Positions 4,877-40,777 of a stretch of DNA of 64,000 bases are shown in pieces. Both the position numbers and the translations under genes were made by a program. The notes beneath the pieces are model-generated. The model did no database searches and was not told the origin of the DNA. It saw only the letters and a list, made by a program, of their open reading frames with translations. This DNA comes from Escherichia coli (lineage in GTDB: Bacteria > Pseudomonadota > Gammaproteobacteria > Enterobacterales > Enterobacteriaceae), in assembly GCF_030013595.1 (NCBI RefSeq), contig NZ_CP122771.1, one strand, 5' to 3'. How positions within the stretch are numbered: position 1 is the first letter of the stretch; each line of letters begins with the position of its first letter.

Positions 4877-4901
4877 AACTACTAATTCTGAAGGATTTTT
4901 T

Positions 4902-5363
4902 ATGTATAAACAGGCAACAGAATTAATGCTGAACTTTAAAGACCGCATTCTGATTAAGGGGGAAGAAGATACCGGCAAGTCAACTCTCCTGACTGAAATA
5001 AGAATCAGTGATAGTGATTCCCGGTATTACAACTTTAAAACTCTTAACTCTGCGGGGTATAACCAGCTTTGTGATGAAAATATTGATGATTTTGATTTTC
5101 TGAATACACCTGAAAAGACGTTAATCCTTGATGGAGTCAGGCTGTGTGAAAAGAAAATGACATCAAAAGTTATCAGGTTAATTAAACAGGCCAGAAAATA
5201 TCATAAACGCCTGGTTGTGGTTGCAGACTCATGTGAGTCTGAGTTTATCGAACTGTTGTTTGATGGTGTTATTGCATTGTCCTTCAATTCTGACAGAGAA
5301 AGGAGCTGCAATGTTTATACGCCATCAAGGTGTCGTAATACAGATAATATTTATGCCAGGTAA
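4902..5363 (+). CDS. Hypothetical small P-loop NTPase-like protein
   Basis: AT-rich ORF with RBS aagga before ATG 4902; canonical Walker A GEEDTGKST after a hydrophobic strand and Walker B-like RLVVVADS; no tra-gene counterpart recalled at this position in F. Confidence 0.5.
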   Translation: MYKQATELMLNFKDRILIKGEEDTGKSTLLTEIRISDSDSRYYNFKTLNSAGYNQLCDENIDDFDFLNTPEKTLILDGVRLCEKKMTSKVIRLIKQARKYHKRLVVVADSCESEFIELLFDGVIALSFNSDRERSCNVYTPSRCRNTDNIYAR

Positions 5364-5392
5364 ATGTGTAAACAAAAACAGAGGAGGGTGTA

Positions 5393-5845
5393 ATGAGTAA
5401 TAATATAAAATATGGCTCCAGAATACTTGATATGGGTGTTCTGCTGGAGATGAAAGCGCTTGTGAATGCAAATGGTGGTGTGTCACGGTGCATTATGGAG
5501 TGCCGGCAGCTTGCCTGTGAGGTCCGTCATTCGCAACAATTACTGGATAAGCTGTCATGTATTGACGACTGGCTGTGCCGGTTTTCCTCAATAATGTATC
5601 ACCGTTTTGATAAAGAACAGATTCAGTGGCGGGAGGATGTGGACAGGAATTATCCCAGAGAAAAAGTTTATATTTTCAGTCCCGATGATGTCTCCGTCCA
5701 TAATAATGATATTAAAGACTCTGCCAATAACACATCAGGAATAACCGTGTCGGTTACAGCCAGTAAAATATTTGCAGGTCAGAAAGAGTTTGATGCTTTT
5801 TTAAAACTGGCAGAAAAACTGAGAGAAAACCCTACGGGTAATTAA
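5393..5845 (+). CDS. Hypothetical protein, likely co-operonic partner of the P-loop protein
   Basis: 150-aa AT-rich ORF 30 bp downstream of the previous gene with strong RBS gaggaggg; no recognisable motif. Confidence 0.5.
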   Translation: MSNNIKYGSRILDMGVLLEMKALVNANGGVSRCIMECRQLACEVRHSQQLLDKLSCIDDWLCRFSSIMYHRFDKEQIQWREDVDRNYPREKVYIFSPDDVSVHNNDIKDSANNTSGITVSVTASKIFAGQKEFDAFLKLAEKLRENPTGN

Positions 5846-5872
5846 ATTGTAATAATGCCATCAGGATATATC

Positions 5873-6511
5873 ATGAACTGGAAAATATTTGCACTTTTTG
5901 CCCTGACTGCAGGAATGCATATCACTGTTCATGCCTCAGACAATGTGAACACTCCTGAAAACCGCCAGTTCCTGAAGCAGCAGGAAAATTTAAGCAGACA
6001 ACTGCGTGAAAAACCTGACCATCAGCTGAAGGCCTGGGCGGAGAAACAGGTGCTGGAGAACCCCCTTCAGCGTTCAGATAACCATTTCCTGGATGAGCTG
6101 GTTCGTAAACAGCAGGCTTCGCAGGACGGGAAACCCCGGCAGGGGGCCCTGTATTTTGTGTCGTTTTCCATTCCCGAAGAGGGGCTGAAACGGATGCTGG
6201 GCGAAACCCGGCACTACGGTATACCCGCCACACTGCGGGGCATGGTGAACAATGACCTGAAGACCACCGCTGAAGCCGTGCTGTCCCTGGTGAAAGACGG
6301 CGCGACTGATGGTGTTCAGATCGACCCGACGCTGTTTTCACAGTACGGCATTCGCAGCGTACCGACACTGGTGGTGTTCTGCAGTCAGGGATACGACATC
6401 ATCCGGGGAAACCTGCGGGTCGGCCAGGCGCTGGAGAAAGTGGCCGCCACGGGTGACTGCCGGCAGGTGGCTCATGATTTACTGGCAGGGAAAGGAGATT
6501 CCGGGAAATGA
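5873..6511 (+). CDS. trbC: TrbC (periplasmic pilus assembly protein) with a divergent N-terminus
   Basis: From ...ASDNVNTPENRQFLKQQENLSRQLREKPDHQLKAW the protein matches recalled F TrbC; signal peptide MNWKIFALFALTAGMHITVHA differs from F; upstream ATG at 5855 is an alternative start. Confidence 0.85.
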   Translation: MNWKIFALFALTAGMHITVHASDNVNTPENRQFLKQQENLSRQLREKPDHQLKAWAEKQVLENPLQRSDNHFLDELVRKQQASQDGKPRQGALYFVSFSIPEEGLKRMLGETRHYGIPATLRGMVNNDLKTTAEAVLSLVKDGATDGVQIDPTLFSQYGIRSVPTLVVFCSQGYDIIRGNLRVGQALEKVAATGDCRQVAHDLLAGKGDSGK

Positions 6512-8358
6512 AACGTATGTTACCTCTGATACTGGCTCTGGTTGCCGGCATGGCACAGGCTGACAGCAACAGTGATTACCGGGCCGGTTCTGATTTTGCT
6601 CACCAGATCAAAGGACAGGGAAGCAGCAGTATTCAGGGCTTTAAGCCACAGGAGAGTATCCCCGGCTATAACGCGCATCCGGACGAGACAAAATATTACG
6701 GTGGCGTGACTGCCGGCGGGGATGGCGGCCTGAAAAATGACGGCACCACGGAATGGGCGACCGGTGAAACCGGAAAAACCATCACAGAGTCCTTCATGAA
6801 CAAGCCGAAAGACATTCTTTCACCGGATGCACCGTTCATTCAGACCGGCAGGGATGTGGTGAACCGGGCTGACAGCATTGTGGGAAACACAGGCCAGCAG
6901 TGTAGTGCACAGCAGATAAACCGCAGTGAATTCACAAACTATACCTGTGAACGGGACACGATGGTGGAGGAGTATTGCACACGGACTGCCAGGATCACCG
7001 GAGACTGGAAATACACAGATGAATATCGTGAGGTGACGATACCGCACTCACAGTTCCGGTTCAGTATGAACGGGCTGAAACTGGTGTTCAGTGTCACGGC
7101 TCCGGTAACCGGTACAGTGGAAAGTGCATCATTGTCTGTATACGCCGCTTTTTTCTTCCTGAACTCTCGTTATACCTTCATGAATTCAACGTTCAATGTT
7201 GGCCTGGTAAACGGGCAGTCGGGTACTTTCCCCCTGTCCGGGGCGACAGGTTTGCAGGTGACACAAGGGCAGGTTCTGACCGGCAGTGGCTGTACTGCTA
7301 ACGGTAACTGTCTTTCTGGCGGGAACGGTGACCGACAGGTTTATGAGAAACTGGCCAGCGGCGCGTCCACCTTTACACTGAAACTCAGGATGAAGGTCCG
7401 TGATAAAGAATGGGTTCCACGGGTGGAGTGGGTGGAGAGTTGTCCGTTTAATAAAGCGGATGGCGTGCTGAAAGGCACTGAGTGTTCAGAGCCGGGTGGT
7501 ACGAAAACTGGTGTGATGGAAGGTAAACCCTGGAGCATCACACAGGCGTGCTGGGCATACCGGGATAAATATGTCACACAGTCCGCAGATAATGGTACCT
7601 GTCAGAAATATGTCGATAATCCGGCCTGTACGCTGGCCTCACGTCAGTGCGCGTTTTATTCCGATGAGGGAACCTGTCTGCATGAGTATGCCACGTACTC
7701 CTGCGAGTCAAAAACATCAGGAAAAGTGATGGTCTGTGGTGGTGATGTCTTCTGCCTTGACGGTGAATGCGATAAGGCGCAGAGCGGAAAAAACAGTGAT
7801 TTTGGTGCAGCCGTATCACAGCTGGCTGCGCTTGCCGCTGCTGGTAAGGATGTTGCCGCCCTGAATGGTGTGGATGTCAGGGCTTTCACCGGCGAGGCGA
7901 AATTCTGCCGTAAGGCCGCAGCCGGCTTCAGTAACTGCTGTAAGGATGGTGGCTGGGGTCAGGATGTGGGTCTGGCGAAGTGTAACAGTGAAGAAAAGGC
8001 GCTGGGAAAGGCAAAGGACAACAAACTGACGGTGAGTGTTGGCGAGTTCTGTTCGAAAAAGGTACTCGGTGTCTGCCTGCAGAAAAAGCGCAGCTACTGC
8101 CAGTTTGATTCGAAACTGGCGCAGATAGTCCAGCAGCAGGGGCGTAACGGGCAGCTGCGTATCGGGTTTGGCAGCGCCAAAAGTCCTGACTGTCGTGGAA
8201 TAACCGTGGATGAACTGCAGCGTATTAAGTTCGACCAGCTGGACTTCACTAACTTCTACGAAGACCTGATGAATAACCAGAAAATCCCGGACAGTGGTGT
8301 TCTGACGCAGAAAGTGAAAGAACAGATTGCTGACCAGCTGAAACAGGCAGGACAGTAA
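6508..8358 (+). CDS. traN: TraN, outer-membrane mating-pair stabilisation protein
   Basis: 616 aa, signal peptide MKRMLPLILALVAGMAQA, cysteine-rich C-terminal half; matches F TraN. Confidence 0.95.
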   Translation: MKRMLPLILALVAGMAQADSNSDYRAGSDFAHQIKGQGSSSIQGFKPQESIPGYNAHPDETKYYGGVTAGGDGGLKNDGTTEWATGETGKTITESFMNKPKDILSPDAPFIQTGRDVVNRADSIVGNTGQQCSAQQINRSEFTNYTCERDTMVEEYCTRTARITGDWKYTDEYREVTIPHSQFRFSMNGLKLVFSVTAPVTGTVESASLSVYAAFFFLNSRYTFMNSTFNVGLVNGQSGTFPLSGATGLQVTQGQVLTGSGCTANGNCLSGGNGDRQVYEKLASGASTFTLKLRMKVRDKEWVPRVEWVESCPFNKADGVLKGTECSEPGGTKTGVMEGKPWSITQACWAYRDKYVTQSADNGTCQKYVDNPACTLASRQCAFYSDEGTCLHEYATYSCESKTSGKVMVCGGDVFCLDGECDKAQSGKNSDFGAAVSQLAALAAAGKDVAALNGVDVRAFTGEAKFCRKAAAGFSNCCKDGGWGQDVGLAKCNSEEKALGKAKDNKLTVSVGEFCSKKVLGVCLQKKRSYCQFDSKLAQIVQQQGRNGQLRIGFGSAKSPDCRGITVDELQRIKFDQLDFTNFYEDLMNNQKIPDSGVLTQKVKEQIADQLKQAGQ

Positions 8359-18054: not shown

Positions 18055-20280
18055 ATGAGTTTTAACGCAAAGGATATGACCCAGGGCGGTCAGATTGCGT
18101 CCATGCGTATCCGCATGTTCAGCCAGATCGCCAATATCATGCTTTACTGCCTGTTTATTTTTTTCTGGATACTCGTTGGTCTGATTTTATGGGTAAAAAT
18201 AAGCTGGCAGACGTTTGTGAACGGCTGTATTTACTGGTGGTGTACCACGCTGGAAGGCATGCGGGATTTAATCAAGTCCCAGCCAGTATATGAGATCCAG
18301 TATTACGGCAAAACCTTCCGGATGAACGCGGCTCAGGTACTGCATGATAAATACATGATCTGGTGCGGTGAGCAGCTATGGTCCGCATTCGTTCTGGCGT
18401 CTGTCGTGGCCCTGGTTATTTGCCTGATTACCTTCTTTGTTGTTTCCTGGATTCTGGGGCGTCAGGGTAAACAACAGAGCGAAAATGAAGTCACAGGTGG
18501 TCGTCAGCTGACAGACAATCCGAAAGATGTTGCCCGGATGCTGAAAAAAGACGGCAAGGACTCCGATATCCGGATTGGCGACCTGCCGATTATCCGAGAT
18601 TCCGAAATCCAGAACTTCTGTCTGCACGGCACAGTCGGGGCCGGTAAGTCGGAGGTTATCCGTCGTCTGGCCAACTACGCCCGTAAGCGTGGTGATATGG
18701 TGGTGATTTATGACCGTTCAGGGGAATTTGTTAAAAGTTACTATGATCCCTCCATCGATAAAATCCTGAATCCGCTGGATGCCCGCTGTGCCGCATGGGA
18801 TTTGTGGAAGGAGTGCCTGACACAGCCGGATTTTGATAATACCGCGAACACGCTGATCCCTATGGGTACAAAAGAGGACCCGTTCTGGCAGGGGTCAGGA
18901 CGTACCATTTTTGCGGAAGCGGCGTACCTGATGCGTAATGACCCCAACCGCAGCTACAGCAAACTGGTGGACACACTGCTTTCCATCAAAATCGAAAAAC
19001 TGCGTACCTTCCTGCGTAATTCACCGGCAGCCAACCTGGTGGAAGAGAAAATTGAGAAAACGGCGATTTCCATCCGTGCTGTGCTGACCAACTACGTGAA
19101 AGCCATCCGTTACCTGCAGGGGATTGAGCATAACGGTGAGTCTTTTACCATCCGTGACTGGATGCGTGGTGTCCGGGAAGATCAGAAAAACGGCTGGCTG
19201 TTTATCTCGTCGAATGCCGACACCCATGCCTCCCTGAAGCCGGTGATCTCCATGTGGCTGTCCATTGCCATTCGTGGTCTGCTGGCAATGGGAGAAAACC
19301 GTAATCGTCGTGTGTGGTTTTTCTGTGACGAGTTACCCACGTTACACAAACTGCCGGACCTGGTGGAGATCCTGCCGGAAGCCCGTAAGTTCGGTGGCTG
19401 TTATGTGTTTGGTATCCAGTCCTATGCCCAGCTGGAAGATATCTACGGTGAGAAAGCGGCGGCCACGCTGTTTGACGTCATGAACACCCGTGCCTTTTTC
19501 CGTTCTCCCAGCCATAAGATTGCAGAGTTCGCTGCCGGTGAAATTGGTGAGAAAGAGCACCTGAAAGCCAGCGAGCAGTATTCCTACGGTGCTGACCCGG
19601 TACGTGACGGGGTATCGACCGGTAAGGATATGGAGCGTCAGACGCTGGTCAGTTATTCCGACATTCAGTCTCTGCCGGATCTGACCTGTTATGTCACTCT
19701 GCCCGGACCGTATCCGGCAGTCAAACTCTCTCTGAAATATCAGGCACGTCCGAAGGTTGCCCCGGAGTTTATTCCGCGTGACATCAACCCGGAAATGGAG
19801 AACCGTCTGAGTGCCGTACTTGCCGCAAGGGAAGCAGAAGGTCGCCAGATGGCCAGCCTCTTCGAACCGGAGGTTGCCTCCGGAGAAGGCGTGACTCAGG
19901 CTGAACAGCCACAACAGCCACAACAGCCACAACAGCCACAACAGCCACAACAGCCACAACAGCCACAACAGCCACAACAGCCACAACAGCCACAACAGCC
20001 AGTGTCTTCTGTCATCAATGATAAGAAGTCAGATGCAGGTGTGAGTGTTCCGGCAGGGGGGATCGAGCAGGAGCTGAAAATGAAACCGGAAGAAGAGATG
20101 GAACAGCAACTGCCACCCGGGATCAGTGAATCCGGTGAAGTGGTGGATATGGCCGCTTATGAGGCATGGCAACAGGAAAATCATCCGGACATCCAGCAGC
20201 ATATGCAGCGTCGTGAAGAGGTGAACATTAATGTACACCGGGAGCGCGGGGAGGATGTTGAGCCGGGAGATGATTTCTGA
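18055..20280 (+). CDS. traD: TraD, type IV coupling protein
   Basis: 741 aa, N-terminal TM segments, Walker [10 protein letters not shown]-terminal QQP repeat tract and acidic tail as in F/R100 TraD. Confidence 0.95.
19906..19995 (+). repeat. Tandem 9-bp repeat (cagccacaa) x10 encoding the (QQP)n tract of TraD
   Basis: Ten perfect 9-bp units read directly in the sequence. Confidence 0.9.
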
Positions 20281-29967: not shown

Positions 29968-30174
29968 ATGAAGTACCTTAACACTACTGATTGTAGCCTC
30001 TTCCTTGCAGAGAGGTCAAAGTTTATGACGAAATATGCCCTTATCGGGTTGCTCGCCGTGTGCGCCACGGTGTTGTGTTTTTCACTGATATTCAGGGAAC
30101 GGTTATGTGAGCTGAATATTTACAGGGGAAATACAGTGGTGCAGGTAACTCTGGCCTACGAAGCACGGAAGTAA
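29968..30174 (+). CDS. SrnB' overlapping leader ORF (mok-like) of the srnB locus
   Basis: ATG 29968 in frame with the toxin; MKYLNTTDCSLFLAERSKF... precedes the toxin Met. Confidence 0.5.
   Translation: MKYLNTTDCSLFLAERSKFMTKYALIGLLAVCATVLCFSLIFRERLCELNIYRGNTVVQVTLAYEARK
30025..30174 (+). CDS. srnB: SrnB, Hok/Gef-family membrane toxin
   Basis: 49-aa peptide MTKYALIGLLAVCATVLCFSLIFRERLCELNIYRGNTVVQVTLAYEARK matches recalled F SrnB/Hok family. Confidence 0.8.
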   Translation: MTKYALIGLLAVCATVLCFSLIFRERLCELNIYRGNTVVQVTLAYEARK

Positions 30175-30457
30175 GCTGCCGGGCGGGGACGGAAGTCCCC
30201 GCTTTCCGGAAGTGTGAGGTATTTCAGGGGCAGACACCCGACATGCCAGAAACAGCCGGTCCCGCCCGGGGCCGGCATCCTGGTTAAGGCATTTCCTGCT
30301 TTTCAGTCATTTCATTATCAAAATCACATTAAACGGTCGTAATCAGACATGATTTGTGCGCCAACACAGATCTTCGTCACAATTCTCAAGTCGCTGATTT
30401 CAAAAAACTGTAGTATCCTCTGCGAAACGATCCCTGTTTGAGTATTGAGGAGGCGAG

Positions 30458-30706
30458 ATGTCGCAGACAGAAAATGCAGTGACTTCCTCATCAGGTACAA
30501 AGCGAGCATACAGAAAAGGTAATCCTCTGACGCTTGCAGAACGTCAGCAGGCATCCCTGGCAAGAAAACGAGCTACACATAAAGAACTCAGAGTGTTCAT
30601 TCCTGCTGCGTTAAAAGCGCAATTGCAGGTGATGTGTGAAGCTGAGGGCGTTACCCAGGCTGAGATGATTGCCGAACTGATAAAGCAGAAGAGTGCTTTT
30701 AGCTAA
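30458..30706 (+). CDS. repA2: CopB (RepA2), transcriptional repressor of repA
   Basis: 82 aa with N-terminus [24 protein letters not shown] as recalled for IncFII CopB. Confidence 0.85.
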
Positions 30707-30949
30707 CTAAAATGTAGCGACATCACATTCTTGCCTGTTTCTGGTGTGCGTGATAGATTGCTGATCGTTTAAGGAATTTTGTGGCTGGCCACGCCGTAAG
30801 GTGGCAGGGAACTGGTTCTGATGTGGATTTACAGGAGCCAGAAAAGCGAAAACCCCGATAATCTTTCTATGTTTGGCGACGAAGAAGATTACCGGGGCCA
30901 TCTAAAAACCGTATAGCCAACAATTCAGCTATGCGGGGAGTATAGTTAT

Positions 30950-31024
30950 ATGCCCGGAAAAGTTCAAGACTTCTTTCTGTGCTCACTCCTTCTGCGCATT
31001 GTAAGTGCAGGATGGTGTGACTGA
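30950..31024 (+). CDS. tap: Tap leader peptide (RepA6) translationally coupled to repA1
   Basis: 24-codon [27 protein letters not shown] whose stop overlaps the repA1 GTG start, as in R1/R100. Confidence 0.55.
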
Positions 31025-31874
31025 TCTTCAACAAACGTATTACCGCCAGGTAAAGAACCCGAATCCGGTGTTCACACCCCGTGAAGGTGCCGGAACACTG
31101 AAGTTCTGCGAAAAACTGATGGAAAAGGCGGTGGGCTTCACCTCCCGTTTTGATTTCGCTATTCATGTGGCGCATGCCCGTTCGAAGGGACTGCGTCGGC
31201 GCATGCCACCGGTGCTGCGTCGACGGGCTATTGATGCACTGCTGCAGGGGCTGTGTTTCCACTATGACCCGCTGGCCAACCGTGTCCAGTGCTCCATCAC
31301 CACGCTGGCCATTGAGTGCGGGCTGGCGACGGAGTCTGCTGCCGGAAAACTCTCTATCACCCGAGCCACCCGCGCCCTGACGTTCCTCGCAGAGCTGGGC
31401 CTGATTACCTACCAGACGGAATATGACCCGCTTATCGGGTGCTACATTCCGACCGACATCACGTTCACACCGGCACTGTTTGCCGCTCTCGATGTGTCTG
31501 AGGTGGCGGTGGCAGCTGCGCGCCGCAGTCGTGTGGAATGGGAAAACAGACAGCGCAAGAAGCAGGGACTGGATGCACTGGGTATGGATGAACTGATAGC
31601 GAAAGCCTGGCGTTTTGTGCGTGAGCGTTTCCGCAGTTACCAGACAGAGCTTAAGTCCCGGGGAATAAAGCGTGCCCGTGCGCGTCGTGATGCGGACAGG
31701 GAACGTCAGGATATTGTCACCCTGGTGAAACGGCAGCTGACGCGCGAAATCGCGGAAGGGCGCTTCACTGCTAATCGTGAGGCAGTAAAACGCGAAGTGG
31801 AGCGTCGTGTGAAGGAGCGCATGATTCTGTCACGTAACCGTAATTACAGCCGGCTGGCCACAGCTTCCCCCTGA
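31017..31874 (+). CDS. repA1: RepA1, IncFII replication initiator (GTG start)
   Basis: 285 aa starting [30 protein letters not shown]; matches recalled R100 RepA1. Confidence 0.9.
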
Positions 31875-32049
31875 AAGTGACTTCTCCTGAATAATCCGGC
31901 CCGCGCCGGAGGCATTCGCACGCCTGAAGCCTGTCAGCGAACAAAAAAGCAGCACTGCATACAAAAAACAATCTCATCATCCACCTTCAGGTGCATCCGG
32001 TTCCCCCTGTTTTTGATGCAAAACACCTCCCACAGACGGGTAATTTTGC

Positions 32050-32058
32050 TTATCCACA
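32050..32058 (+). promoter_or_regulatory. DnaA box (TTATCCACA) in the probable oriR downstream of repA1
   Basis: Perfect consensus 9-mer about 175 bp after the repA1 stop, where the IncFII origin lies. Confidence 0.4.
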
Positions 32059-32786
32059 TTTAACTGCAAGGGACTTCCCCATAAGGTTACAACCGTTCAT
32101 GTCATAAAGCGCCAGCCGTCAGCGTTACAGGGTGCAATGTATCTTTTAAACACCTGTTTATATCTCCTTTAAACTACTTAATTACATTCATTTAAAAAGA
32201 AAACCTATTCACTGCCTGTCCTGTGGACAGACAGATATGCACCTCCCACCGCAAGCGGCGGGCCCCGACCAGAAACTATTTAGTTACAACACTCAAATAC
32301 AACCACCGGAAGAACCCCGGTCCCGCGCAGAACTGAAACCACAAAGCCCCTCCTCATAACTGAAAAGCGAGGCCGCCCCCGCCCAAAGGGCGGGAACAAC
32401 ATCGCTTTTAATTATGAATGTTGTAACTACATTATCATCGCTGCCAGTTCTCTGGCTGGAAGTCCTCAGTACACGCTCGTAAGCGGCCCTCACGGCCCGC
32501 TAACGCGGAGATACGCCCCGACTTCGGGTAAACCCTTGTCGGGACCACTCCGACCGCGCACAGAAGCTCTCTCATGGCTGAAAGCGGGTATGGTCTGGCA
32601 GGGCCGGGGATGGGTAAGGTGAAATCTATCAATCAGTACCGGCTTACGCCGGGCTTCGGCGGTTTTACTCCTGTATCATATGAAACAACAGAGTGCCGCC
32701 TTCCATGCCGCTGATGCGGCATATCCTGGTGACGATATCTGAATCGTTATATACTGTGTATATACGTAGTAATGACGAGGTGATAA

Positions 32787-33056
32787 ATGGCACAGGTTAA
32801 TATGAGTTTAAGAATCGACGCTGAACTGAAGGATGCTTTTATGGCCGCTGCAAAAAGCATGGACCGTAATGGCTCTCAGTTAATCCGGGATTTTATGCGC
32901 CAGACCGTTGAACGGCAGCATAATACCTGGTTCCGTGACCAGGTTGCGGCAGGACGTCAGCAACTCGAGCACGGCGATGTGCTTCCCCATGACATGGTCG
33001 AATCTTCTGCTGCTGCATGGCGGGATGAGATGAGCAGGAAGATTGCCGGTAAATGA
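32787..33056 (+). CDS. Ribbon-helix-helix antitoxin (RelB/ParD-like)
   Basis: 89 aa, MAQVNMSLRIDAELKDAFMAAAKSMDRNGSQLIRDFMRQ is a typical RHH; stop overlaps the downstream start (ATGATG). Confidence 0.7.
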   Translation: MAQVNMSLRIDAELKDAFMAAAKSMDRNGSQLIRDFMRQTVERQHNTWFRDQVAAGRQQLEHGDVLPHDMVESSAAAWRDEMSRKIAGK

Positions 33057-33217
33057 TGGAGATATTTTGGACCATGCTGGCCAGCCAGGACAGGAAGCGC
33101 ATTCGTGAGTACATTGCGGAGCAGAACCTGATGGTCGCCATTGAACTGGACGAACGGATTGGTTATTTCGGACGAACGCACCGGCTTACGCCGGTTTTAC
33201 ATCTGTACTACATGTAA
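33056..33217 (+). pseudogene. Truncated RelE/ParE-like toxin (53 codons)
   Basis: Reading frame MEIFWTMLASQDRKRIREYIAEQNLMVAIELDERIGYFGRTHRLTPVLHLYYM runs into the repeat motif accggcttacgccgg and stops; too short for a functional toxin. Confidence 0.45.
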
Positions 33218-33264
33218 CCTCATACACACATAAATGAGTAACATACTGATTAATATGGTAAATC

Positions 33265-34188
33265 ATGACGATTGAAAGCTTTTTTATTGGCACCCGCCGC
33301 TCTGATAAACGTTACGGGCCTCAGAGCAAGGATATGCAGGTTTCTGAATTCATTTCTCTGATTTCTCCCCAAAATGCCCCTCATAAGGTTGTGTTACCTG
33401 ATTTTACTGGTCTGGCAATTCAGCTTGATGCACAAATCAGGAACCAGTTTCATCAACTGAAAGAGGATGAGCACTTCCTTCGATATCGGCAGTTGTCGGA
33501 AAGGTGGTATCAGGCGGACTCTATTAGTGACAGAAACAACCGCAGTAAGCGTTTTGAGAAGATCATGGATGACTCACTTGATTTTTTGCTTTACAGCCAA
33601 GACGTCATGCCTAACATCAATCCAGATGATCTCCAATGGCATGATTACGAAAAGGCTAGCAGTAAGGGTAAAATGTACTGTGTAGCGCTTCTGTTCCATG
33701 TCATTGCACGGGCTGCATATGAACCCGAATCTGTGGGTAAAGATCCGACACTTCCAGAATATTGCCGGTGGATGAAAAATTGGATAGAGAAAACATTAGG
33801 TCATGATTTTTTAGATAGAATGATGATCTATTGTGCGCTGTTTGCCCCAGCGTATTTTCCCGCGTTACAACGTCTGAGCGGAGAGAAAGAAACGCGTGAT
33901 GTCCATGAATTCCTGGCTGAGCATGTTCGCACTTTAGCTCAAAAAAATTCTTCAGAGGTAAATTATAGAGATCAACGGCAATTCACGTTTGGCTACACCA
34001 TGTTCACGAAGCAACAATTTGAATTTCTGGGCATGATGCGCGATGTCCATTACCGGATTGATTGTATTGAACAGCTCCTTCTGGACCTTATAGAACGTAA
34101 GGTTGTGGATTTCACTGATGCATCTGTTGCAGGCACGTGGATTGAGAAGCAAATTCAGCGGCTTGAATCAAACGACGTAAAGCAGTAA
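33265..34188 (+). CDS. Hypothetical protein (307 aa), orphan
   Basis: Long ORF with ATG start immediately after the truncated toxin; no recognisable family. Confidence 0.5.
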   Translation: MTIESFFIGTRRSDKRYGPQSKDMQVSEFISLISPQNAPHKVVLPDFTGLAIQLDAQIRNQFHQLKEDEHFLRYRQLSERWYQADSISDRNNRSKRFEKIMDDSLDFLLYSQDVMPNINPDDLQWHDYEKASSKGKMYCVALLFHVIARAAYEPESVGKDPTLPEYCRWMKNWIEKTLGHDFLDRMMIYCALFAPAYFPALQRLSGEKETRDVHEFLAEHVRTLAQKNSSEVNYRDQRQFTFGYTMFTKQQFEFLGMMRDVHYRIDCIEQLLLDLIERKVVDFTDASVAGTWIEKQIQRLESNDVKQ

Positions 34189-34807
34189 CCCTCTGAACTG
34201 TAAATTGGGTAGTCAGATTTAATTATTGGCACCTGTTCATAGGTGCCACCTTTCTGAAAGAATGTATCCTAATTTTTCGATATCCAAACTGACCCCTATT
34301 TTAGATGTTTCATTTATCACACCCTAAAGCTGAATATTTATCACAAGCCATTTTTACCGATAAATAACTAAGGCGATCAATGCCAATGGACTTACAATAA
34401 TAAACAGATTCTTTTTTGCTATTCAGGTTCGTAACACGGGGTCTGAAGTCCAATGGAACGAAAACGTACGTTAGTGAAGTAACTGTATGATATATCAAGA
34501 CATAATGGACATAGAAAAACGCCATCAAAACGGTGTCTTTTTAATCGAAAATTGGCACTTAACGGACGGCATTGTCTACTAATCGATTTTTAGACGATAA
34601 TTTTCCTCTTACCGTACATTTTCGTACGGTTGGCCCTCAAACCCCGATTTGAACTCAATCGGATAACCTGAATGCAATACCGCAATGGCGATAATTTAAA
34701 AGCGATAGCCGTTGACGCAAAATCAATCCGTTACGCATCTCTATTGGTTAAATAATGCGCTTAACGTACAAAATTTTCCCATATCCAAACTGACCCCTTA
34801 AAGGACA

Positions 34808-35155
34808 TCAACACGCATTCGGCGTTTTTTCTTGTCCAATTGTGATTTTCGTGAGCTCCGTATCAGTGAAATTTCCCTTTCCTGATTCTGTGTCAAAGTC
34901 ACCAGGTTTGAACCGGTGTACATCCTGCCATATAGAGAAACAGGTGTGGCAGGTGACAGGCAGTTCTCCATCAGCCACCTTTTCGCAGTTTTCAATCAGT
35001 ACCCGTTCCTTATTGTATTGTAAGTTATAACCACTTGTGCAAAGCGTTTCATACCCGTGAGCGCCTGTCACGATATGTGTGGCAATCCGTTCCCTGACTT
35101 TTCCGTTCACTAATAACTGTTCACGTGTGGTGATCGTTCGCATTCTCTTCCTCAT
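34808..35155 (-). CDS. Hypothetical protein (115 aa) with Cys/His pattern
   Basis: Minus-strand ORF convergent with the 307-aa gene; RBS-like ggaaa before ATG; cysteines and histidines suggest possible metal binding. Confidence 0.4.
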   Translation of the reverse strand: MRKRMRTITTREQLLVNGKVRERIATHIVTGAHGYETLCTSGYNLQYNKERVLIENCEKVADGELPVTCHTCFSIWQDVHRFKPGDFDTESGKGNFTDTELTKITIGQEKTPNAC

Positions 35156-35480
35156 CAGCTTTCCTGTAGAAGCCTCCTGACTATAAGGCTCCGGATATCT
35201 TACCCGCTCATTTTGGCTGGAGGTAGTGGTGGCGTCAGAGGATGAATTACTGACATTGTATATGAAGCTTTGAGTTTTTTCTGGATTTCATCAGTGTTTA
35301 TCTTTATTTGTTCTTGTTTGTTCTCTTTTGTGCTGTTGGAGTCGGTTTTTGTCTGTGTTTTTCTTTATTTTTCCATTTGTGGCCGATATCAGGTCTTTAC
35401 CGATACGTTGTTTTAGGTGATAATCGTTTTTGATCTCGTATTTTTCTAAAAAAATCCATTTTATTTATGTGAGGTTCTAG

Positions 35481-36461
35481 ATGCGTATCTTTGTAGACGA
35501 CGGCTCTACCAACATCAAACTGGCCTGGGTTGAAGACGGTGCAGTGAAAACGTTAATTAGTCCGAATAGTTTTAAGCCGGAATGGTCTATGACGCTGCAG
35601 GGACTGACTGATGCCACTGTACCCGCTTCCGCAAACTATGAGATTGATGGAGAAAAATACAGCTTTGATCAATTGAGTCCGGATGCAGTGCGCACCACAG
35701 AAACGCGTTATCAGTACAGCGACGTTAATGTGGTTGCTATTCATCATGCGTTGATGCAGTCAGGTATTGCTCCACAACCTGTTGATATTGTTGTGACTTT
35801 ACCTTTAGGTGAGTATCTGGATGAGAACGATCAGCCAAATCTGGCTAATATCGAACGTAAGAAAAATAATGTCCGGCGAACTGTAACAGTTCAGGGGCGT
35901 GAAAACTTTACCATTCGTAAAGTCAGTGTCTTGCCTGAGTCCGTGCCTGCCGGTTTTGACGTGCTGAAAGATCTGAATGATCTGGAGTCGCTGTTGATTG
36001 TTGATATCGGTGGAACGACCCTTGATATTGCACATGTCCGCAGCAAAATGTCAGGTTTCACAAAAACCTATTGTGACCCCAAGACTGGCGTCTCCATCAT
36101 TACTGAAGCAGTTAAGCATGCGATGGATGTGAATGTGAGTACACGAACCAGTTCTTATTTTGCAGATCGTCTAATCCAGGGCCGGGATGACAATGAATTC
36201 CTGACCCGTTATATCCCGAATGCAGAACAGCGTGAGCGGATCCTGACAGTATTACGTGACCGGGAAAAAAAACTGCAGCATCGTGTGGCGGATTCAGTAG
36301 GACGCTTTGCTGGTTTTACTCATGTTATGGTTGTTGGCGGTGGTGCCAGCCTTGTGGCTGGGGCAGTAAAAAAAGCGACAGGAGTGGGTGATAACCGTTT
36401 CTTTGTCAGTGACAATCCTCAGTTCGATCTGGTGTTGGGAATGATGGCAATGAAGGGATGA
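35481..36461 (+). CDS. stbA: StbA/ParM actin-like partition ATPase
   Basis: 326 aa; MRIFVDDGSTNIKLAW... and DIGGTTLDI motifs match recalled R1 ParM / R100 StbA. Confidence 0.85.
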   Translation: MRIFVDDGSTNIKLAWVEDGAVKTLISPNSFKPEWSMTLQGLTDATVPASANYEIDGEKYSFDQLSPDAVRTTETRYQYSDVNVVAIHHALMQSGIAPQPVDIVVTLPLGEYLDENDQPNLANIERKKNNVRRTVTVQGRENFTIRKVSVLPESVPAGFDVLKDLNDLESLLIVDIGGTTLDIAHVRSKMSGFTKTYCDPKTGVSIITEAVKHAMDVNVSTRTSSYFADRLIQGRDDNEFLTRYIPNAEQRERILTVLRDREKKLQHRVADSVGRFAGFTHVMVVGGGASLVAGAVKKATGVGDNRFFVSDNPQFDLVLGMMAMKG

Positions 36462-36886
36462 GTATGGCTGATAATCGTAAGTGCTCTTTTTATATTTATC
36501 CGGAACGAAATGCAGCTGATCGGGTGGCTGACAGGTTTCTTGAAAAATTGCCTCAGAAAGAACGTGGTCGGGCAATGCGGGCCATGATGTTGTGTGGTGC
36601 TGCATTGATGAAGCAGGATGAACGATTGCCGTTCCTGATAGCTGAATTCCTGACAGACAGCACGTCTATGCAGGATATTCAACGAATTATCAGTAGTACG
36701 CTACCACAACAGGAAAATGGTGAAGTCGTTCGTTTGCTGGAGGCATTTCTGCAGTCTGCTGGTAATAATGCAAAAGCGATCCTGCCTGCGGTTGATTCTG
36801 CTACGCAAGAAATATCTGCTCCAGTCGATCAGAATCTCCTGGAAACAAGAAACAACATTAAGAACTTGTTTCCGGATGATGAATAA
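36458..36886 (+). CDS. stbB: StbB/ParR partition adaptor
   Basis: 142-aa ORF overlapping the stbA stop; position as ParR/StbB. Confidence 0.65.
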   Translation: MSMADNRKCSFYIYPERNAADRVADRFLEKLPQKERGRAMRAMMLCGAALMKQDERLPFLIAEFLTDSTSMQDIQRIISSTLPQQENGEVVRLLEAFLQSAGNNAKAILPAVDSATQEISAPVDQNLLETRNNIKNLFPDDE

Positions 36887-36904
36887 GAACTGAACTCTGT
36901 TAAA

Positions 36905-36928
36905 GGACGCTGTTGCGTCCTTTTTTCT
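36905..36928 (+). terminator. Rho-independent terminator after stbB
   Basis: GGACGC-tgtt-GCGTCC followed by a T-run. Confidence 0.6.
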
Positions 36929-37258
36929 TTTCCGACAAAGGATGTCGCCGGGCTCCTCTTTTTACTGCGCCGGCTGACGCGGCGCGGCAGGAACGCTGCC
37001 TGTGGTCAGTATCCCGCGTCCGGCCGGGCACGGGACGGGCGCTTTTACCGCTCCCGGCTGGCGTCGGTGGCAGTGTACGCCAGCCCGTCGCCCTTTTCTG
37101 ATGAACGCCCTTCAAGCCGCTTTCGCGGCATATCCTCGCCGTCAAACAGACGACGGCTGCGGTATTCCACGGTCGGCCTGACCCGTTATCGGACGCGGTG
37201 AACAGCCCACAGGCCGCGGGGAACGGGCGCCACAGGGGCGCCCTCCCGGTGCTCTCTG
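36924..37258 (+). repeat. Leading-region repeat type A, copy 1 (Frpo/ssi-like)
   Basis: About 335 bp nearly identical to 38244-38567; GC-rich with multiple hairpins, upstream of a leading-region gene. Confidence 0.7.
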
Positions 37259-37286
37259 CTGAAGCAGAAGTGAGAGGAGAATTCCC

Positions 37287-38213
37287 ATGCCAAACTGGTG
37301 CTCAAATCGTATGCATTTTTCTGGTGAACCGGCACAGATTGCTGAGATTAAACGACTGGCCAGCGGTGCAGTCACACCGTTTTATCGCCGCGCCACAAAT
37401 GAAGGTATTCAGCTGTTTCTGGCCGGAAGTGCCGGACTTCTGCAGACCACTGAAGATGTGCAGTTTGAACCGTGCCCCGGAGTGACGGCTGCCGGACGTG
37501 GTGTTGTATCGCCGGAGAATATCGCGTTCACCTGCTGGCTGACACACCTGCAGAACGGTGTGCTACTGGATGAACAAAACTGCCTGATGCTGCATGAACT
37601 CTGGCTGCAGAGTGGTACTGGCCAGCGTCGCTGGGAAGGATTACCGGATGAGGTCAGGGAAACCATCACCGTGCATTTCACCGCCAAAAGAGGTGACTGG
37701 TGTGGCTTCTGGAGTAACGAGGATGTATCGGTGTGGTGGAACCGTCTGTGTGACAATGTACTGCCGGAAAAAACCATGCCGTTTGACCTGCTGACGGTTC
37801 TGCCCACCCGCCTGGATGTTGAAGTGAATGGCTTTAACGGTGGTGTTCTGAATGGTGTTCCTTCTGCGTATCACTGGTATACGGAACAGTATGGCGTGAA
37901 GTGGCCTGTGGGGTATGAGGTGAATATCAGCCGTCAGGGAGAAAACTTCATTCAGGTGGATTTCGACACGCCGTGGTGTCAGCCGGAAAGCAACGTTGTT
38001 GCAGAATTAAGCCGCCGTTTCGGCTGCACGCTGGAGCACTGGTACGCCGAACAGGGCTGCAATTTCTGTGGCTGGCAGTTGTATGAGCGCGGAGAGCTCG
38101 TTGATGTGCTGTGGGGGGAACTGGAATGGTCTTCCCCGACAGATGACGATGAGCTGCCGGAAGTCACCGGACCTGCGTGGATAGTCGACAAGGTGGCGCA
38201 TTATGGCGGATGA
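37287..38213 (+). CDS. Conserved leading-region protein (308 aa, Trp/Cys-rich)
   Basis: RBS gagagga before ATG 37287; first gene after repeat type A copy 1. Confidence 0.6.
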   Translation: MPNWCSNRMHFSGEPAQIAEIKRLASGAVTPFYRRATNEGIQLFLAGSAGLLQTTEDVQFEPCPGVTAAGRGVVSPENIAFTCWLTHLQNGVLLDEQNCLMLHELWLQSGTGQRRWEGLPDEVRETITVHFTAKRGDWCGFWSNEDVSVWWNRLCDNVLPEKTMPFDLLTVLPTRLDVEVNGFNGGVLNGVPSAYHWYTEQYGVKWPVGYEVNISRQGENFIQVDFDTPWCQPESNVVAELSRRFGCTLEHWYAEQGCNFCGWQLYERGELVDVLWGELEWSSPTDDDELPEVTGPAWIVDKVAHYGG

Positions 38214-38227
38214 AGTATGACGGAGAC

Positions 38228-38250
38228 GGGCGGGCAACCGCCCGTTTCTT
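38228..38250 (+). terminator. Terminator-like hairpin after the 308-aa gene
   Basis: GGGCGG-gcaa-CCGCCC followed by a T-run. Confidence 0.5.
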
Positions 38251-38567
38251 TTCCGGTAAAGGATGTCGCCGTGCTCCTCTTTTTACTGCGCCGGCTGACG
38301 CGGCGCGGCATAAACGCTGCCTGTGGTCAGTGTCCCGCGTCCGGCGGGCACGGGACGGACGCTTTTACCGCTCCCGGCTGGCGTCAGTGACAGTGTACGC
38401 CAGCCCGTCGCCCTTTCTGATGAACGCCCTTCAAGCCGCTTTCGCGGCATAGCCTTGCCGTCAAACAGACGACGGCTGCGGTATTCCACGGTCGGCCTGA
38501 CCCGTTACCGGACGCGGTGAACAGCCCACAGGCCGCGGGGAACGGGCACCACAGGGGTGCCCTCCCG
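38244..38567 (+). repeat. Leading-region repeat type A, copy 2 (Frpo/ssi-like)
   Basis: Near-identical to 36924-37258. Confidence 0.7.
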
Positions 38568-38595
38568 GTGCCCTCTGTAAGAGAAGGAGGCTTTT

Positions 38596-39279
38596 ATGTC
38601 CCGTTTTATCCTGGGTGACTGCGTGCGAGTTATGGCCACGTTTCCGGACAATGCTGTCGATTTCATCCTCACCGACCCGCCGTATCTCGTCGGTTTCCGT
38701 GACCGTTCCGGGCGCACCATTGCCGGTGACGTTAACGATGACTGGCTGCAACCTGCCAGTAATGAGATGTACCGCGTACTCAAAAAAGACGCGTTAATGG
38801 TGAGCTTCTATGGCTGGAACCGCGTCGATCGCTTTATGGCCGCCTGGAAAAATGCGGGATTCAGCGTGGTTGGCCACCTGGTGTTTACCAAAACCTACAC
38901 ATCGAAGGCCGCATATGTGGGCTATCGCCACGAATGCGCCTACATCCTGGCAAAAGGACGTCCGGCGCTGCCTCAGAAGCCATTGCCCGACGTGCTGGGC
39001 TGGAAATATTCAGGCAACCGCCATCACCCGACGGAAAAGCCTGTTACCAGCCTGCAACCGCTCATTGAGAGCTTCACACATCCGAACGCGATTGTGCTGG
39101 ACCCGTTTGCAGGCAGCGGCTCAACATGCGTCGCCGCCCTCCAGTCCGGACGCCGGTATATCGGTATCGAGCTGCTTGAACAGTATCACCGTGCCGGACA
39201 GCAACGACTGGCCGCCGTGCAACGGGCCATGCAGCAGGGGGCCGCGAATGATAACTGGTTTGAACCGGAGGCGGCGTAA
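38596..39279 (+). CDS. Orphan DNA methyltransferase (DPPY motif IV, then FAGSGST motif I)
   Basis: 227 aa with ILTDPPYLVGF and LDPFAGSGSTCVAA; no adjacent restriction endonuclease. Confidence 0.8.
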   Translation: MSRFILGDCVRVMATFPDNAVDFILTDPPYLVGFRDRSGRTIAGDVNDDWLQPASNEMYRVLKKDALMVSFYGWNRVDRFMAAWKNAGFSVVGHLVFTKTYTSKAAYVGYRHECAYILAKGRPALPQKPLPDVLGWKYSGNRHHPTEKPVTSLQPLIESFTHPNAIVLDPFAGSGSTCVAALQSGRRYIGIELLEQYHRAGQQRLAAVQRAMQQGAANDNWFEPEAA

Positions 39280-39501
39280 ATGAACTATGCCGGACACGAA
39301 AAACTTCGCGCCGAAGTGGCGGAGGTGGCCAACACCATGTGTGACCTTCGGGCCAGGCTGAACGATATGGAGCATCGCTGTCGCTTTGATTCCGATGTGC
39401 TTGTTGAACGCCTGACACGCCAGACGCTGTATCGCGCCAATCGCCTGTTCATGGAGGCATATACCGAAATTCTGGAACTGGATTCCTGCTTCAAAGATTG
39501 A
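39280..39501 (+). CDS. Hypothetical small leading-region protein (73 aa)
   Basis: ATG immediately after the methyltransferase stop (TAAATG). Confidence 0.45.
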   Translation: MNYAGHEKLRAEVAEVANTMCDLRARLNDMEHRCRFDSDVLVERLTRQTLYRANRLFMEAYTEILELDSCFKD

Positions 39502-39512
39502 GGAGAGAGAGT

Positions 39513-39947
39513 ATGTACGGAACATGCGAAACGCTGTGCCGGGAGCTGGCAGCAAAGTATCCGGGAGACACGCCACTGATGCTGGTTATCTGGTCTCCGG
39601 AAGATATTCAGGCACTGGCTGACGGTATGGAAATTTCTCTGACCGATCATGAAATCAGGACCGTCCTGGCGCGCATGGAGGACATCCCGGAAGACCAGCG
39701 GACTGAATCCGGTATTTCTTCCGCCGCGGTGATGGAGATTATCAGCAACGTGAGCGAAAACCGCCAGGTGACCGTCCCTGCTGAACTGCTGGCGTCCCTG
39801 ATTCAGACCGCTGAACAGGCACTGTGGAAACGTGAGTGGGCCGCCCGTGATAACGGCCTCGCCGTCCCGGAATGCGTTACCCGCCGTCAGGCGGTGGTTA
39901 ATCAGGCCCGCACCCTGCTGAAAAACAACACACACGAAAACAACTGA
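39513..39947 (+). CDS. Hypothetical leading-region protein, paralog of 41662-42084
   Basis: RBS gaggagagaga before ATG 39513; shares MYxT... N-terminus and RQVTVPA motif with the paralog. Confidence 0.55.
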
Positions 39948-39997
39948 TGTTATCGCCGCCTGCCCTGCGGGCGGCGATACAGGGAGAACGCTTAATC

Positions 39998-40777
39998 ATG
40001 AACGAAAACAGCACGCTGAACGCACTGATTTGTCGTCACGCCCGTAACCTGCTGCTGGCGCAGGGCTGGCCGGAGGAGACGGATGTTGATCAGCGAGATC
40101 CACAGAACTATCCGGGCTGGATCAGCATTTACGTGCGGCTGGATGCGCCCCGGCTGGCGACGTTACTTATCAACCGTCACGGCGGCGTACTGCCGCCGCT
40201 CCTGGCCTCCGCCATTCAGAGACTGACCGGAACCGGGGCGGAACTGGTACTGTCCGGCAGTCAGTGGCAGTCGCTGCCGGTACTTCCGGCAGACGGAACG
40301 CAGGTGTCTTTCCCGTATGCCGGAGAATGGCTGACCGAAGACGAAATCAGGGCTGTTCTTGATGCGGTGCACGATGCGGTACGAAGCATCTGTTACCAGG
40401 TGGCAGAAGATGCGCGGCGTATCCGTGCGGCGCTGACCACCACCGGTCAGACGTTGCTGACCCGCCAGACGCGCCGCTTTCGCCTGGTCGTGAAGGAAAG
40501 CGATCACCCCTGCTGGCTCGATGAAGATGACGAAAACCTGCCCGTGGTGCTCGATGCCATCGTGAACCGGGGAGCACGTTTTTCGTCGGTGGAAATGTAT
40601 CTGGTCAGTGAGTGTATTGAGCATATCCTGTCCAGTGGGCTGGCCTGCGATGTGCTGCGTATACCGGATGAACCGCCCCGCCGCTGGTTTGACCGTGGTG
40701 TTCTGCGGGAAGTTGTCCGGGAAGCCCGGGCCGAAATCCGCAGCATGGCGGATGCCCTGACAAAAATCAGGGGCTGA
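39998..40777 (+). CDS. Hypothetical leading-region protein (259 aa)
   Basis: ATG 39998 preceded by agggaga; uninterrupted ORF. Confidence 0.55.

What the first reader, a model, noticed from the sequence alone, without database searches (positions are those of the whole stretch)
34265..35160. 510-bp non-coding segment bounded by 20-bp direct repeats, with a convergent Cys/His-containing 115-aa gene
Near-identical motifs ttt(c)gatatccaaactgacccct occur at 34265-34287 and 34775-34797. The AT-rich segment between them has no sizeable ORF but contains short perfect hairpins (for example CCGTAC-attttc-GTACGG near 34610). It could be a structured ncRNA, a miniature element bounded by its duplicated target, or a protein-binding array; the adjacent minus-strand ORF (34808-35155) could be its partner.
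Basis: seen in the sequence. Interest (0 to 1): 0.55.

Follow-up and report, generated by a model that had tools for sequence, protein, structure and literature searches.

The report
Debris of two known miniature transposons
The "repeat-bounded non-coding segment" is leftover sequence from two already catalogued miniature Tn3-family transposons (a complete IS101 and a cut-off MITESen1) in the variable region of an F-like plasmid, so it is ordinary mobile-element debris and not a new RNA or protein-binding device.

Summary
A 27-nt motif occurs twice (34271-34297 and 34772-34798, 25/27 identical, 501 bp apart), with no sizeable ORF between the copies.

The repeats are not a target duplication. 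Each is the outer tip of a Tn3-family 38-bp terminal inverted repeat of the MITESen1 type, and both face the same way.

The segment has four pieces:
- **34271-34296:** a solo 26-bp repeat stub.
- **34297-34437:** a 141-bp relic of another plasmid's backbone.
- **34438-34645:** a complete 208-bp IS101, 92.8% identical to the pSC101 reference.
- **34646-34797:** the right-hand ~150 bp of MITESen1.

The "perfect hairpin" near 34610 lies inside the right terminal repeat of IS101. IS101 has no 5-bp target duplication, and related plasmids share only its left flank or only its right flank. It therefore marks a recombination or deletion breakpoint.

No Rfam family matches the segment. The window holds no Tn3-family transposase, so these elements could move only with a helper supplied in trans.

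The neighbouring minus-strand ORF is a real, conserved gene of unknown function. Its distant homologues have no such element beside them, so it is not a partner.

Both elements are published. Interest is low.

The parts
34271..34296 (-). Solo stub: the outer 26 bp of a MITESen1-type Tn3-family terminal inverted repeat (GGGGTCAGTTTGGATATCGAAAAATT on the minus strand).
   Evidence: 25/27 identical to the right copy. The outer 17 nt are identical to MITESen1 repeats in L002, L005, L006 and L007. The inner 12 positions of the would-be 38-bp repeat (34259-34270) do not match (25/38 overall). 26-28 nt match at 100% in about 350 plasmids.
34297..34437 (.). 141-bp relic of another plasmid's backbone, trapped between two transposon ends
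   Evidence: 97.9% identical to CP057019.1 (L011:4001-4141). There the sequence runs on uninterrupted at both ends.
34438..34645 (+). Complete IS101 variant (208 bp), a non-autonomous Tn3-derived miniature element. Left repeat 34438-34475, right repeat 34608-34645. It contains the hairpin at 34613-34630.
   Evidence: 194/209 (92.8%) identical end to end to the pSC101 IS101 sequence in Table S2 of PMC13367494. The terminal repeats match IS101's left and right repeats at 36/38 each. The arms are reported as inverted repeat I1. BLAST hits in other plasmids, including a 4.8-kb ColE1-type plasmid, start and stop at these ends.
34646..34797 (+). Truncated MITESen1: about positions 105-256 of the 256-bp element, including its right terminal repeat at 34760-34797.
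   Evidence: 129/150 (86%) identical to the ISfinder MITESen1 sequence quoted in PMC13367494. 99.3% identical to the intact 258-bp copy in pCFSAN004180G (L006:4895-5152). Right repeat 35/38.
34808..35155 (-). Conserved hypothetical gene (111 aa from the ATG at 35143, 115 aa from 35155). It is a neighbour of the elements, not part of them.
   Evidence: 115 homologous protein clusters in Enterobacterales, down to 46% identity. No Pfam, NCBIfam, PHROG or PADLOC family. C39, C69, C72, H27 and H33 are invariant. Homologues in other contexts have no TIME adjacent.
33168..34270 (+). Accessory module carrying the 307-aa ORF (33265-34188) and its terminator-like hairpin. It begins where IncFII backbone homology breaks inside yacB and ends at the repeat stub.
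   Evidence: Backbone homology in 2217 plasmids stops at window 33167. 39 records share ORF end, stub and spacer; in the two of them that were fetched (L009, L010) the match runs on through IS101. The ORF has no family hits.

Best explanation
[quoted passage not shown] It contains a complete IS101 (34438-34645) joined directly to the right-hand ~150 bp of MITESen1 (34646-34797). It also contains a 26-bp solo stub of a second MITESen1-type terminal repeat (34271-34296) and a 141-bp relic of foreign backbone (34297-34437). Shown here: the identity and boundaries of each piece, their independent distribution in other plasmids, the lack of a 5-bp target duplication around IS101, and the fact that other plasmids share only one flank of IS101. 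Inferred: IS101 first inserted elsewhere, and its right end was then joined to the inside of MITESen1 either by intramolecular replicative transposition, which deletes the intervening DNA, or by recombination between IS101 copies (homologous, or at its internal res site). The same kind of exchange later combined the left-flank and right-flank lineages. The elements encode nothing. They can move only if a Tn1000/Tn3-type transposase is supplied in trans, and none is present in the window. The stub and the truncated MITESen1 each have a single end, and those ends face the same way, so they are most likely immobile.
For: IS101 is identical end to end at 92.8% to the published reference, and MITESen1 at 86% over positions 107-256 (reference sequences). 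An intact 258-bp MITESen1 in L006 is 99.3% identical to 34646-34798 and has both repeats. Only four Tn3-family repeat-like sequences exist in the 64-kb window, and all lie in this segment. BLAST against 72,556 plasmids splits the segment exactly at the element ends: IS101-only hits cover 34438-34645, and MITESen1-only hits run from about 34646 to 34797. The spacer is continuous backbone in L011. The flanks of IS101 are AACAC/GATTT here, TTCTC/GATTT in L002 and AACAC/GGGAG in L009/L010, and the IS101 copies themselves are identical. L009 and L010 share the left flank only and L002 shares the right flank only. The IS101|MITESen1 junction is in 32 records, stub+spacer in 39 and the whole arrangement in 9. 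No Rfam hit lies in the segment. No Tn3-family transposase is in the window: the ORFs of 600 aa or more that were tested are TraC, TraG and a ParB-like protein, and the 1756-aa ORF corresponds to the traI annotated in the near-identical plasmid L001; the ORFs at 6508-8358 and 18055-20280 were not tested. The literature describes IS101 as a 209-bp TIME with a functional res site that is mobilised by Tn1000, and MITESen1 as a 256-bp TIME (PMC13367494).
Against: No target-site duplications survive, so no insertion event can be shown directly. The two predicted ancestral simple-insertion junctions (MITESen1-left|IS101 and IS101|AACACTAACTCC...) were not found in PLSDB. The left repeat copy is only 26 bp, so its identity as a transposon end rests on a short match, and how it was truncated is unknown. 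The IS101 copy differs from the reference by a 4-nt block and a 1-nt deletion in the internal region, so its res site may not work. Nothing here excludes incidental transcription of the segment.
Confidence: 0.93

Rival explanations
1. The segment encodes a structured non-coding RNA whose hairpins are functional RNA helices.
For: The minus strand folds somewhat better than shuffles (z = -2.1), and a terminator-like hairpin lies at 34519-34536.
Against: No Rfam family matches. The long helix is simply the pair of IS101 terminal repeats. The plus strand has z = -0.97. Promoter-like sites are no more frequent than in shuffles. The sub-pieces are distributed independently among plasmids.
Confidence: 0.02
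2. The whole 500-bp unit is a single miniature element bounded by its duplicated target site, or it is a mobilisable composite (TIME-COMP) bounded by the two repeats.
For: There are two near-identical 27-nt repeats 501 bp apart. TIME-COMPs bounded by MITESen1 copies are known.
Against: The repeats are transposon terminal repeats, not target DNA. Tn3-family duplications are 5 bp. Both repeats face the same way, and one is a 26-bp stub lacking the inner transposase-binding part. Only 9 of 72,556 plasmids have the whole unit, while its parts occur separately in thousands.
Confidence: 0.02
3. It is a single-stranded-DNA promoter (Frpo/ssi type) or a Xer/cer-like recombination site belonging to the plasmid backbone.
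For: The location is in an F-like plasmid upstream of parM and the leading region. The transferred-strand fold forms a long imperfect hairpin. From memory, the stretch CGTACAA-N8-CATATCCAAAC loosely resembles a XerC/XerD core.
Against: The hairpin arms are IS101's repeats and the 'Xer-like' stretch is MITESen1's right repeat. No related copies occur elsewhere in the window's leading region. No -35/-10 pair was found in the stem (and inspection). Both elements also occur in small non-conjugative ColE1-type plasmids.
Confidence: 0.02

Closest known systems
IS101 of pSC101 (209-bp Tn3-derived miniature element; Fischhoff et al. 1980; Ishizaki & Ohtsubo 1985, as cited in PMC13367494)
   Same: Length (208 against 209 bp), both 38-bp terminal repeats (36/38 each), 92.8% identity end to end, and no coding capacity.
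   Different: 15 differences, including a 4-nt block (GGCA for TTTC) and a 1-nt deletion in the internal region that holds the res site in the reference. There is no 5-bp target duplication here, and the right end is fused to the inside of another TIME.
MITESen1 (256-bp TIME; ISfinder; Pong & Hall 2021, as cited in PMC13367494)
   Same: The right 150 bp, including the right terminal repeat (35/38). 86% identical to the reference and 99.3% to an intact copy in pCFSAN004180G.
   Different: The left ~105 bp, including the left terminal repeat, are missing, so it is a one-ended remnant. A second, 26-bp repeat stub of the same type lies 501 bp to the left.
TIME-COMPs (composite units bounded by two TIMEs; Szuplewska et al. 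2014, PMC4133298; Gomi & Yano 2026, PMC13367494)
   Same: TIME-derived ends flank other DNA in a plasmid accessory region.
   Different: No pair of complete TIMEs, no outward-facing pair of repeats, no flanking 5-bp repeats and no cargo gene between the ends.

Membership tests
IS101 (TIME) | About 209 bp with full-length sequence similarity to the pSC101 element | tested here: met
   208 bp, 194/209 identical from position 1 to 209.
IS101 (TIME) | Tn3/gamma-delta-type 38-bp terminal inverted repeats starting with GGGG | tested here: met
   34438-34475 and 34608-34645 match at 36/38 each. The arms are 78% complementary to each other.
IS101 (TIME) | No transposase gene (non-autonomous) | tested here: met
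   The longest ORF overlapping the element is 72 aa. The window has no further Tn3-family terminal repeats, and none of the large ORFs that were identified is a Tn3-family transposase; two ORFs of 616 and 741 aa were not tested.
IS101 (TIME) | Internal functional res site | tested here: inconclusive
   The internal sequence is retained but carries a 4-nt substitution block and a 1-nt deletion. Resolvase half-site-like motifs lie at 34484, 34503-34511, 34573 and 34610-34618. Function cannot be tested in silico.
IS101 (TIME) | 5-bp target-site duplication of a simple insertion | tested here: not met
   AACAC on the left, GATTT on the right. This speaks against a simple insertion at this site, not against the element's identity.
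MITESen1 (TIME) | 256-bp element with two Tn3-family terminal repeats | tested here: not met
   Only about positions 105-256 are present and the left repeat is absent. It is filed as a truncated remnant.
MITESen1 (TIME) | Sequence similarity to the ISfinder reference, including the right repeat | tested here: met
   129/150 identical and right repeat 35/38. 99.3% identical to the intact copy in L006.
TIME-COMP | Two TIME copies providing outward-facing ends, with 5-bp flanking direct repeats | tested here: not met
   Both MITESen1-type ends face the same way and one is a 26-bp stub.
Known RNA families (Rfam 15) | Covariance-model match | tested here: not met
   No match at E<=1 within 34189-34807. 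The only significant hit in 30000-40000 is CopA at 30844-30932.

The most novel reading that the evidence does not exclude
IS101, which in the pSC101 reference carries a working res site, may act in F-like plasmids as a portable recombination junction. It sits exactly at the border between the conserved parM/leading-region backbone and the variable accessory region. Identical IS101 copies join different left modules (the 307-aa ORF module, or a DUF262/HEPN nuclease pair) to different right modules (parM backbone, or an HTH gene, strAB and sul2). Module swapping at this spot could therefore be driven by resolvase-mediated or homologous recombination between IS101 copies rather than by transposition.
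Probability: 0.25. Interest if true: 0.35.

Novelty: already known. Interest (0 to 1): 0.08.

Why it matters
It matters mainly for annotation. TIMEs are not annotated by standard pipelines: the plasmid gene tables consulted here listed nothing or 'hypothetical protein' under these matches. Their terminal repeats and hairpins are therefore easily mistaken for novel RNAs or binding sites. Recognising them explains the repeat, the hairpins and the abrupt homology breakpoints in this region of IncF plasmids. It also marks a recombination breakpoint where accessory modules (resistance genes, putative defence genes) are exchanged. No new biology is implied.

Tried and rejected
1. **Frpo/ssi single-stranded promoter.** I folded both strands as ssDNA, looked for related copies elsewhere in the window and scanned for promoters. 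The idea was rejected once the hairpin arms proved to be IS101's terminal repeats.

2. **cer/Xer-like site.** From memory, CGTACAA-N8-CATATCCAAAC loosely resembles a Xer core. It was rejected because the stretch is the MITESen1 right repeat, aligned base for base.

3. **ncRNA.** An Rfam scan with permissive thresholds found nothing in the segment.

4. **A left-hand partner repeat for the stub.** I looked for one that would make the 307-aa ORF module a transposon. No other Tn3-family repeat-like sequence exists in the window.

5. **Ancestral simple-insertion junctions.** Chimeric queries for MITESen1-left|IS101 and IS101|L011 backbone found none in PLSDB. The one apparent full-coverage hit (pE2855-5) was a different cluster of TIME fragments.

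6. **Chimeric IS101 as a trace of res-site crossover.** The copies in the window, L002, L009 and L010 are identical, so the test is uninformative.

7. **Function of the 115-aa and 307-aa ORFs.** Pfam found nothing for the 115-aa ORF, and NCBIfam, PHROGs and PADLOC found nothing for either ORF.

Full report
**Context.** The window is an F-like (IncFII-replicon) conjugative plasmid.
- CopA antisense RNA lies at 30844-30932.
- A near-identical 59.6-kb Escherichia albertii plasmid is annotated with traI, traX, finO, repA2, tap and repA. These are followed by yacA, a 307-aa hypothetical gene, a 111-aa hypothetical gene on the other strand, parM, parR, and then leading-region genes (DNA methylase, antirestriction protein, ssb).
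- The finding lies in the intergenic stretch 34189-34807, between the 307-aa ORF and the minus-strand ORF.

- The repeat is at 34271-34297 and 34772-34798, 25/27 identical, with starts 501 bp apart.
- Its exact 17-mer core occurs only at these two places in 64 kb, where about 0.1 matches would be expected even with 3 mismatches allowed.
- The interval is AT-rich (GC 0.376 against 0.522 for the window), and its longest ORF is 72 aa.
- The hairpin CCGTAC-ATTTTC-GTACGG is at 34613-34630.

**What the pieces are.** BLAST against 72,556 plasmids did not treat the segment as one unit.
- Hundreds of records match only 34438-34645.
- Thousands match only from about 34646 to 34797.
- Only 9 records hold the whole arrangement.
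- Both sub-pieces also occur in 4.5-5.3-kb ColE1-type plasmids.

The first piece is bounded by 37-nt imperfect inverted repeats that read GGGGTCTGAAG...ACGTTAGT, the Tn3/gamma-delta type of terminal repeat. The minus strand of 34760-34797 reads GGGGTCAGTTTGGATATGGGAAAATTTTGTACGTTAAG, again a 38-bp Tn3-family repeat.

In pCFSAN004180G the second piece is the right part of a 258-bp element with both inverted repeats (L006:4895-5152). Complete copies of 254-258 bp also occur in L004, L005 and L007.

[quoted passage not shown] Aligned to these:
- 34438-34645 matches IS101 over its full length (194/209, 92.8%).
- 34648-34797 matches MITESen1 positions 107-256 (129/150, 86%). Against the intact L006 copy it is 99.3% identical from 34646.

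A scan of the whole window with eight Tn3-family terminal repeats found only four convincing sites, all inside this segment:
- IS101 left repeat, 36/38.
- IS101 right repeat, 36/38.
- MITESen1 right repeat, 35/38.
- The left copy at 34259-34296, 25/38.

In that left copy only the outer 26 nt match and the inner 12 do not. The "perfect hairpin" is part of IS101's right terminal repeat and is also present in the pSC101 reference.

**The spacer.** 34297-34437 is 97.9% identical to a stretch of plasmid CP057019.1 (L011:4001-4141). There the sequence continues without any element at either end. It is a relic of foreign backbone, cut on the left by the repeat stub and on the right by IS101.

**History (inferred).**
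- IS101 has no 5-bp target duplication. Its flanks are AACAC/GATTT here, TTCTC/GATTT in pVE155 (L002) and AACAC/GGGAG in L009 and L010, while the four IS101 copies are identical.
- L009 and L010 share everything to the left, through the end of IS101, and then diverge into an HTH gene, strAB and sul2.
- L002 shares everything from the first base of IS101 rightwards, but has a DUF262/HEPN-nuclease pair on the left.
- The IS101|MITESen1 junction is in 32 records, and stub+spacer is in 39.
- IS101 is therefore a breakpoint. Its right end was most likely joined to the inside of MITESen1 by intramolecular replicative transposition with deletion, or by recombination between IS101 copies. The window plasmid looks like a recombinant of an L009-type left arm and an L002-type right arm.
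- The predicted ancestral simple insertions were not found in PLSDB, so the order of events is not proven.
- Further left, IncFII backbone homology stops at 33167 inside yacB. The whole stretch 33168-34797 is therefore accessory mosaic.

**Mobility.** The window has no other Tn3-family terminal repeats. Among the six ORFs of at least 600 aa, the three tested are TraC, TraG and a ParB-like protein, the 1756-aa ORF corresponds to the traI annotated in the near-identical plasmid L001, and the two others, which lie in the transfer-gene part of the window, were not tested. None of those identified is a Tn3-family transposase. According to the literature, IS101 is mobilised by Tn1000 and has a functional res site, whereas no res-like similarity was found for MITESen1. 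The copy here carries a 4-nt block change and a 1-nt deletion in the internal region, so whether its res site works is open.

**Alternatives.**
- **Structured ncRNA.** No Rfam hit. The fold z-scores are modest (-2.1 and -0.97) and are explained by the IS101 repeats. Promoter-like sites occur at the shuffled-sequence rate.
- **Frpo-type ssDNA promoter or Xer/cer site.** I considered both because of the plasmid context. Both were dropped once the sequences aligned base for base with TIME repeats, and no related copies were found elsewhere in the window.
- **Composite transposon.** This is excluded by the orientation of the two ends and the truncation of one of them.

**The neighbouring ORF.** 34808-35155 is a genuine, conserved gene of 105-111 aa.
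- 115 protein clusters are found across Escherichia, Klebsiella, Pantoea, Erwinia and Yersinia, and the 13 homologues aligned are 46-78% identical to it.
- TITT, ATHIVTGAHGYETLC and P-TC--C motifs are conserved, with three Cys and two His invariant.
- It has no Pfam, NCBIfam, PHROG or PADLOC family.
- Homologues in other contexts (next to Ter-domain or integrase genes, or in Pantoea contigs) have no TIME adjacent. It is a neighbour by accident, not a partner.

**Verdict.** The only mildly interesting angle is that IS101 marks a recurrent module-exchange point in IncF plasmids.

Noticed in passing
window 33053-33217 (breakpoint at 33167): The yacB (RelE/ParE-type) toxin gene is truncated to 54 codons. 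Homology to the common IncFII yacA-yacB backbone, seen in 2217 plasmids, stops at 33167 inside it, while the antitoxin gene yacA (32787-33056) is intact.
   Followed up: partly
window 33265-34188 (+): This 307-aa ORF has no hit in NCBIfam, PHROGs or PADLOC (Pfam was not run on it). It is followed by a terminator-like hairpin (GGCACCTGTTCATAGGTGCC, about 34221-34249) and travels as a module in about 40-55 plasmids.
   Followed up: partly
window 34808-35143/35155 (-): This is a conserved 105-111-aa protein family of Enterobacterales plasmids with three invariant Cys and two invariant His, which may bind zinc. It has no described family. It sits directly upstream of, and divergent from, parM here, but lies in other contexts elsewhere.
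   Followed up: partly
L002 (pVE155, NZ_AP018354.1) 4776-8209: A DUF262 protein and a HEPN-like nuclease (a putative defence pair) lie between a complete MITESen1-like element and the IS101 copy. The MITESen1-like element (about L002:4817-5073) is itself abutted by a Tn3/Tn2 terminal repeat with only 5 bp between them.
   Followed up: partly
L012 (pE2855-5, NZ_AP018801.1) 2324-2738: A complete IS101, a Tn21/IMU-like terminal-repeat fragment and a truncated MITESen1 (positions 1-141) are packed within about 415 bp. Tn3-family ends seem to cluster at the same spots in IncF plasmids.
   Followed up: no
window 35283-35381: T-rich direct repeats (GTGTTT[A/T]TCTTTATTT...) lie just upstream of parM (35481-36461). 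By position they are probably the parC-type centromere/promoter region of the ParMR system.
   Followed up: no
PLSDB-wide: Sequences related to MITESen1 and IS101 at 73-99% identity hit 3704 of 72,556 plasmids. Published counts with stricter criteria are 2.28% and 0.42% of RefSeq Enterobacteriaceae genomes. Diverged or truncated TIME copies therefore seem much more common than catalogued.
   Followed up: no
window 30844-30932 (-): CopA-like antisense RNA of the IncFII replicon, 91.3 bits, E = 1.3e-16.
   Followed up: yes
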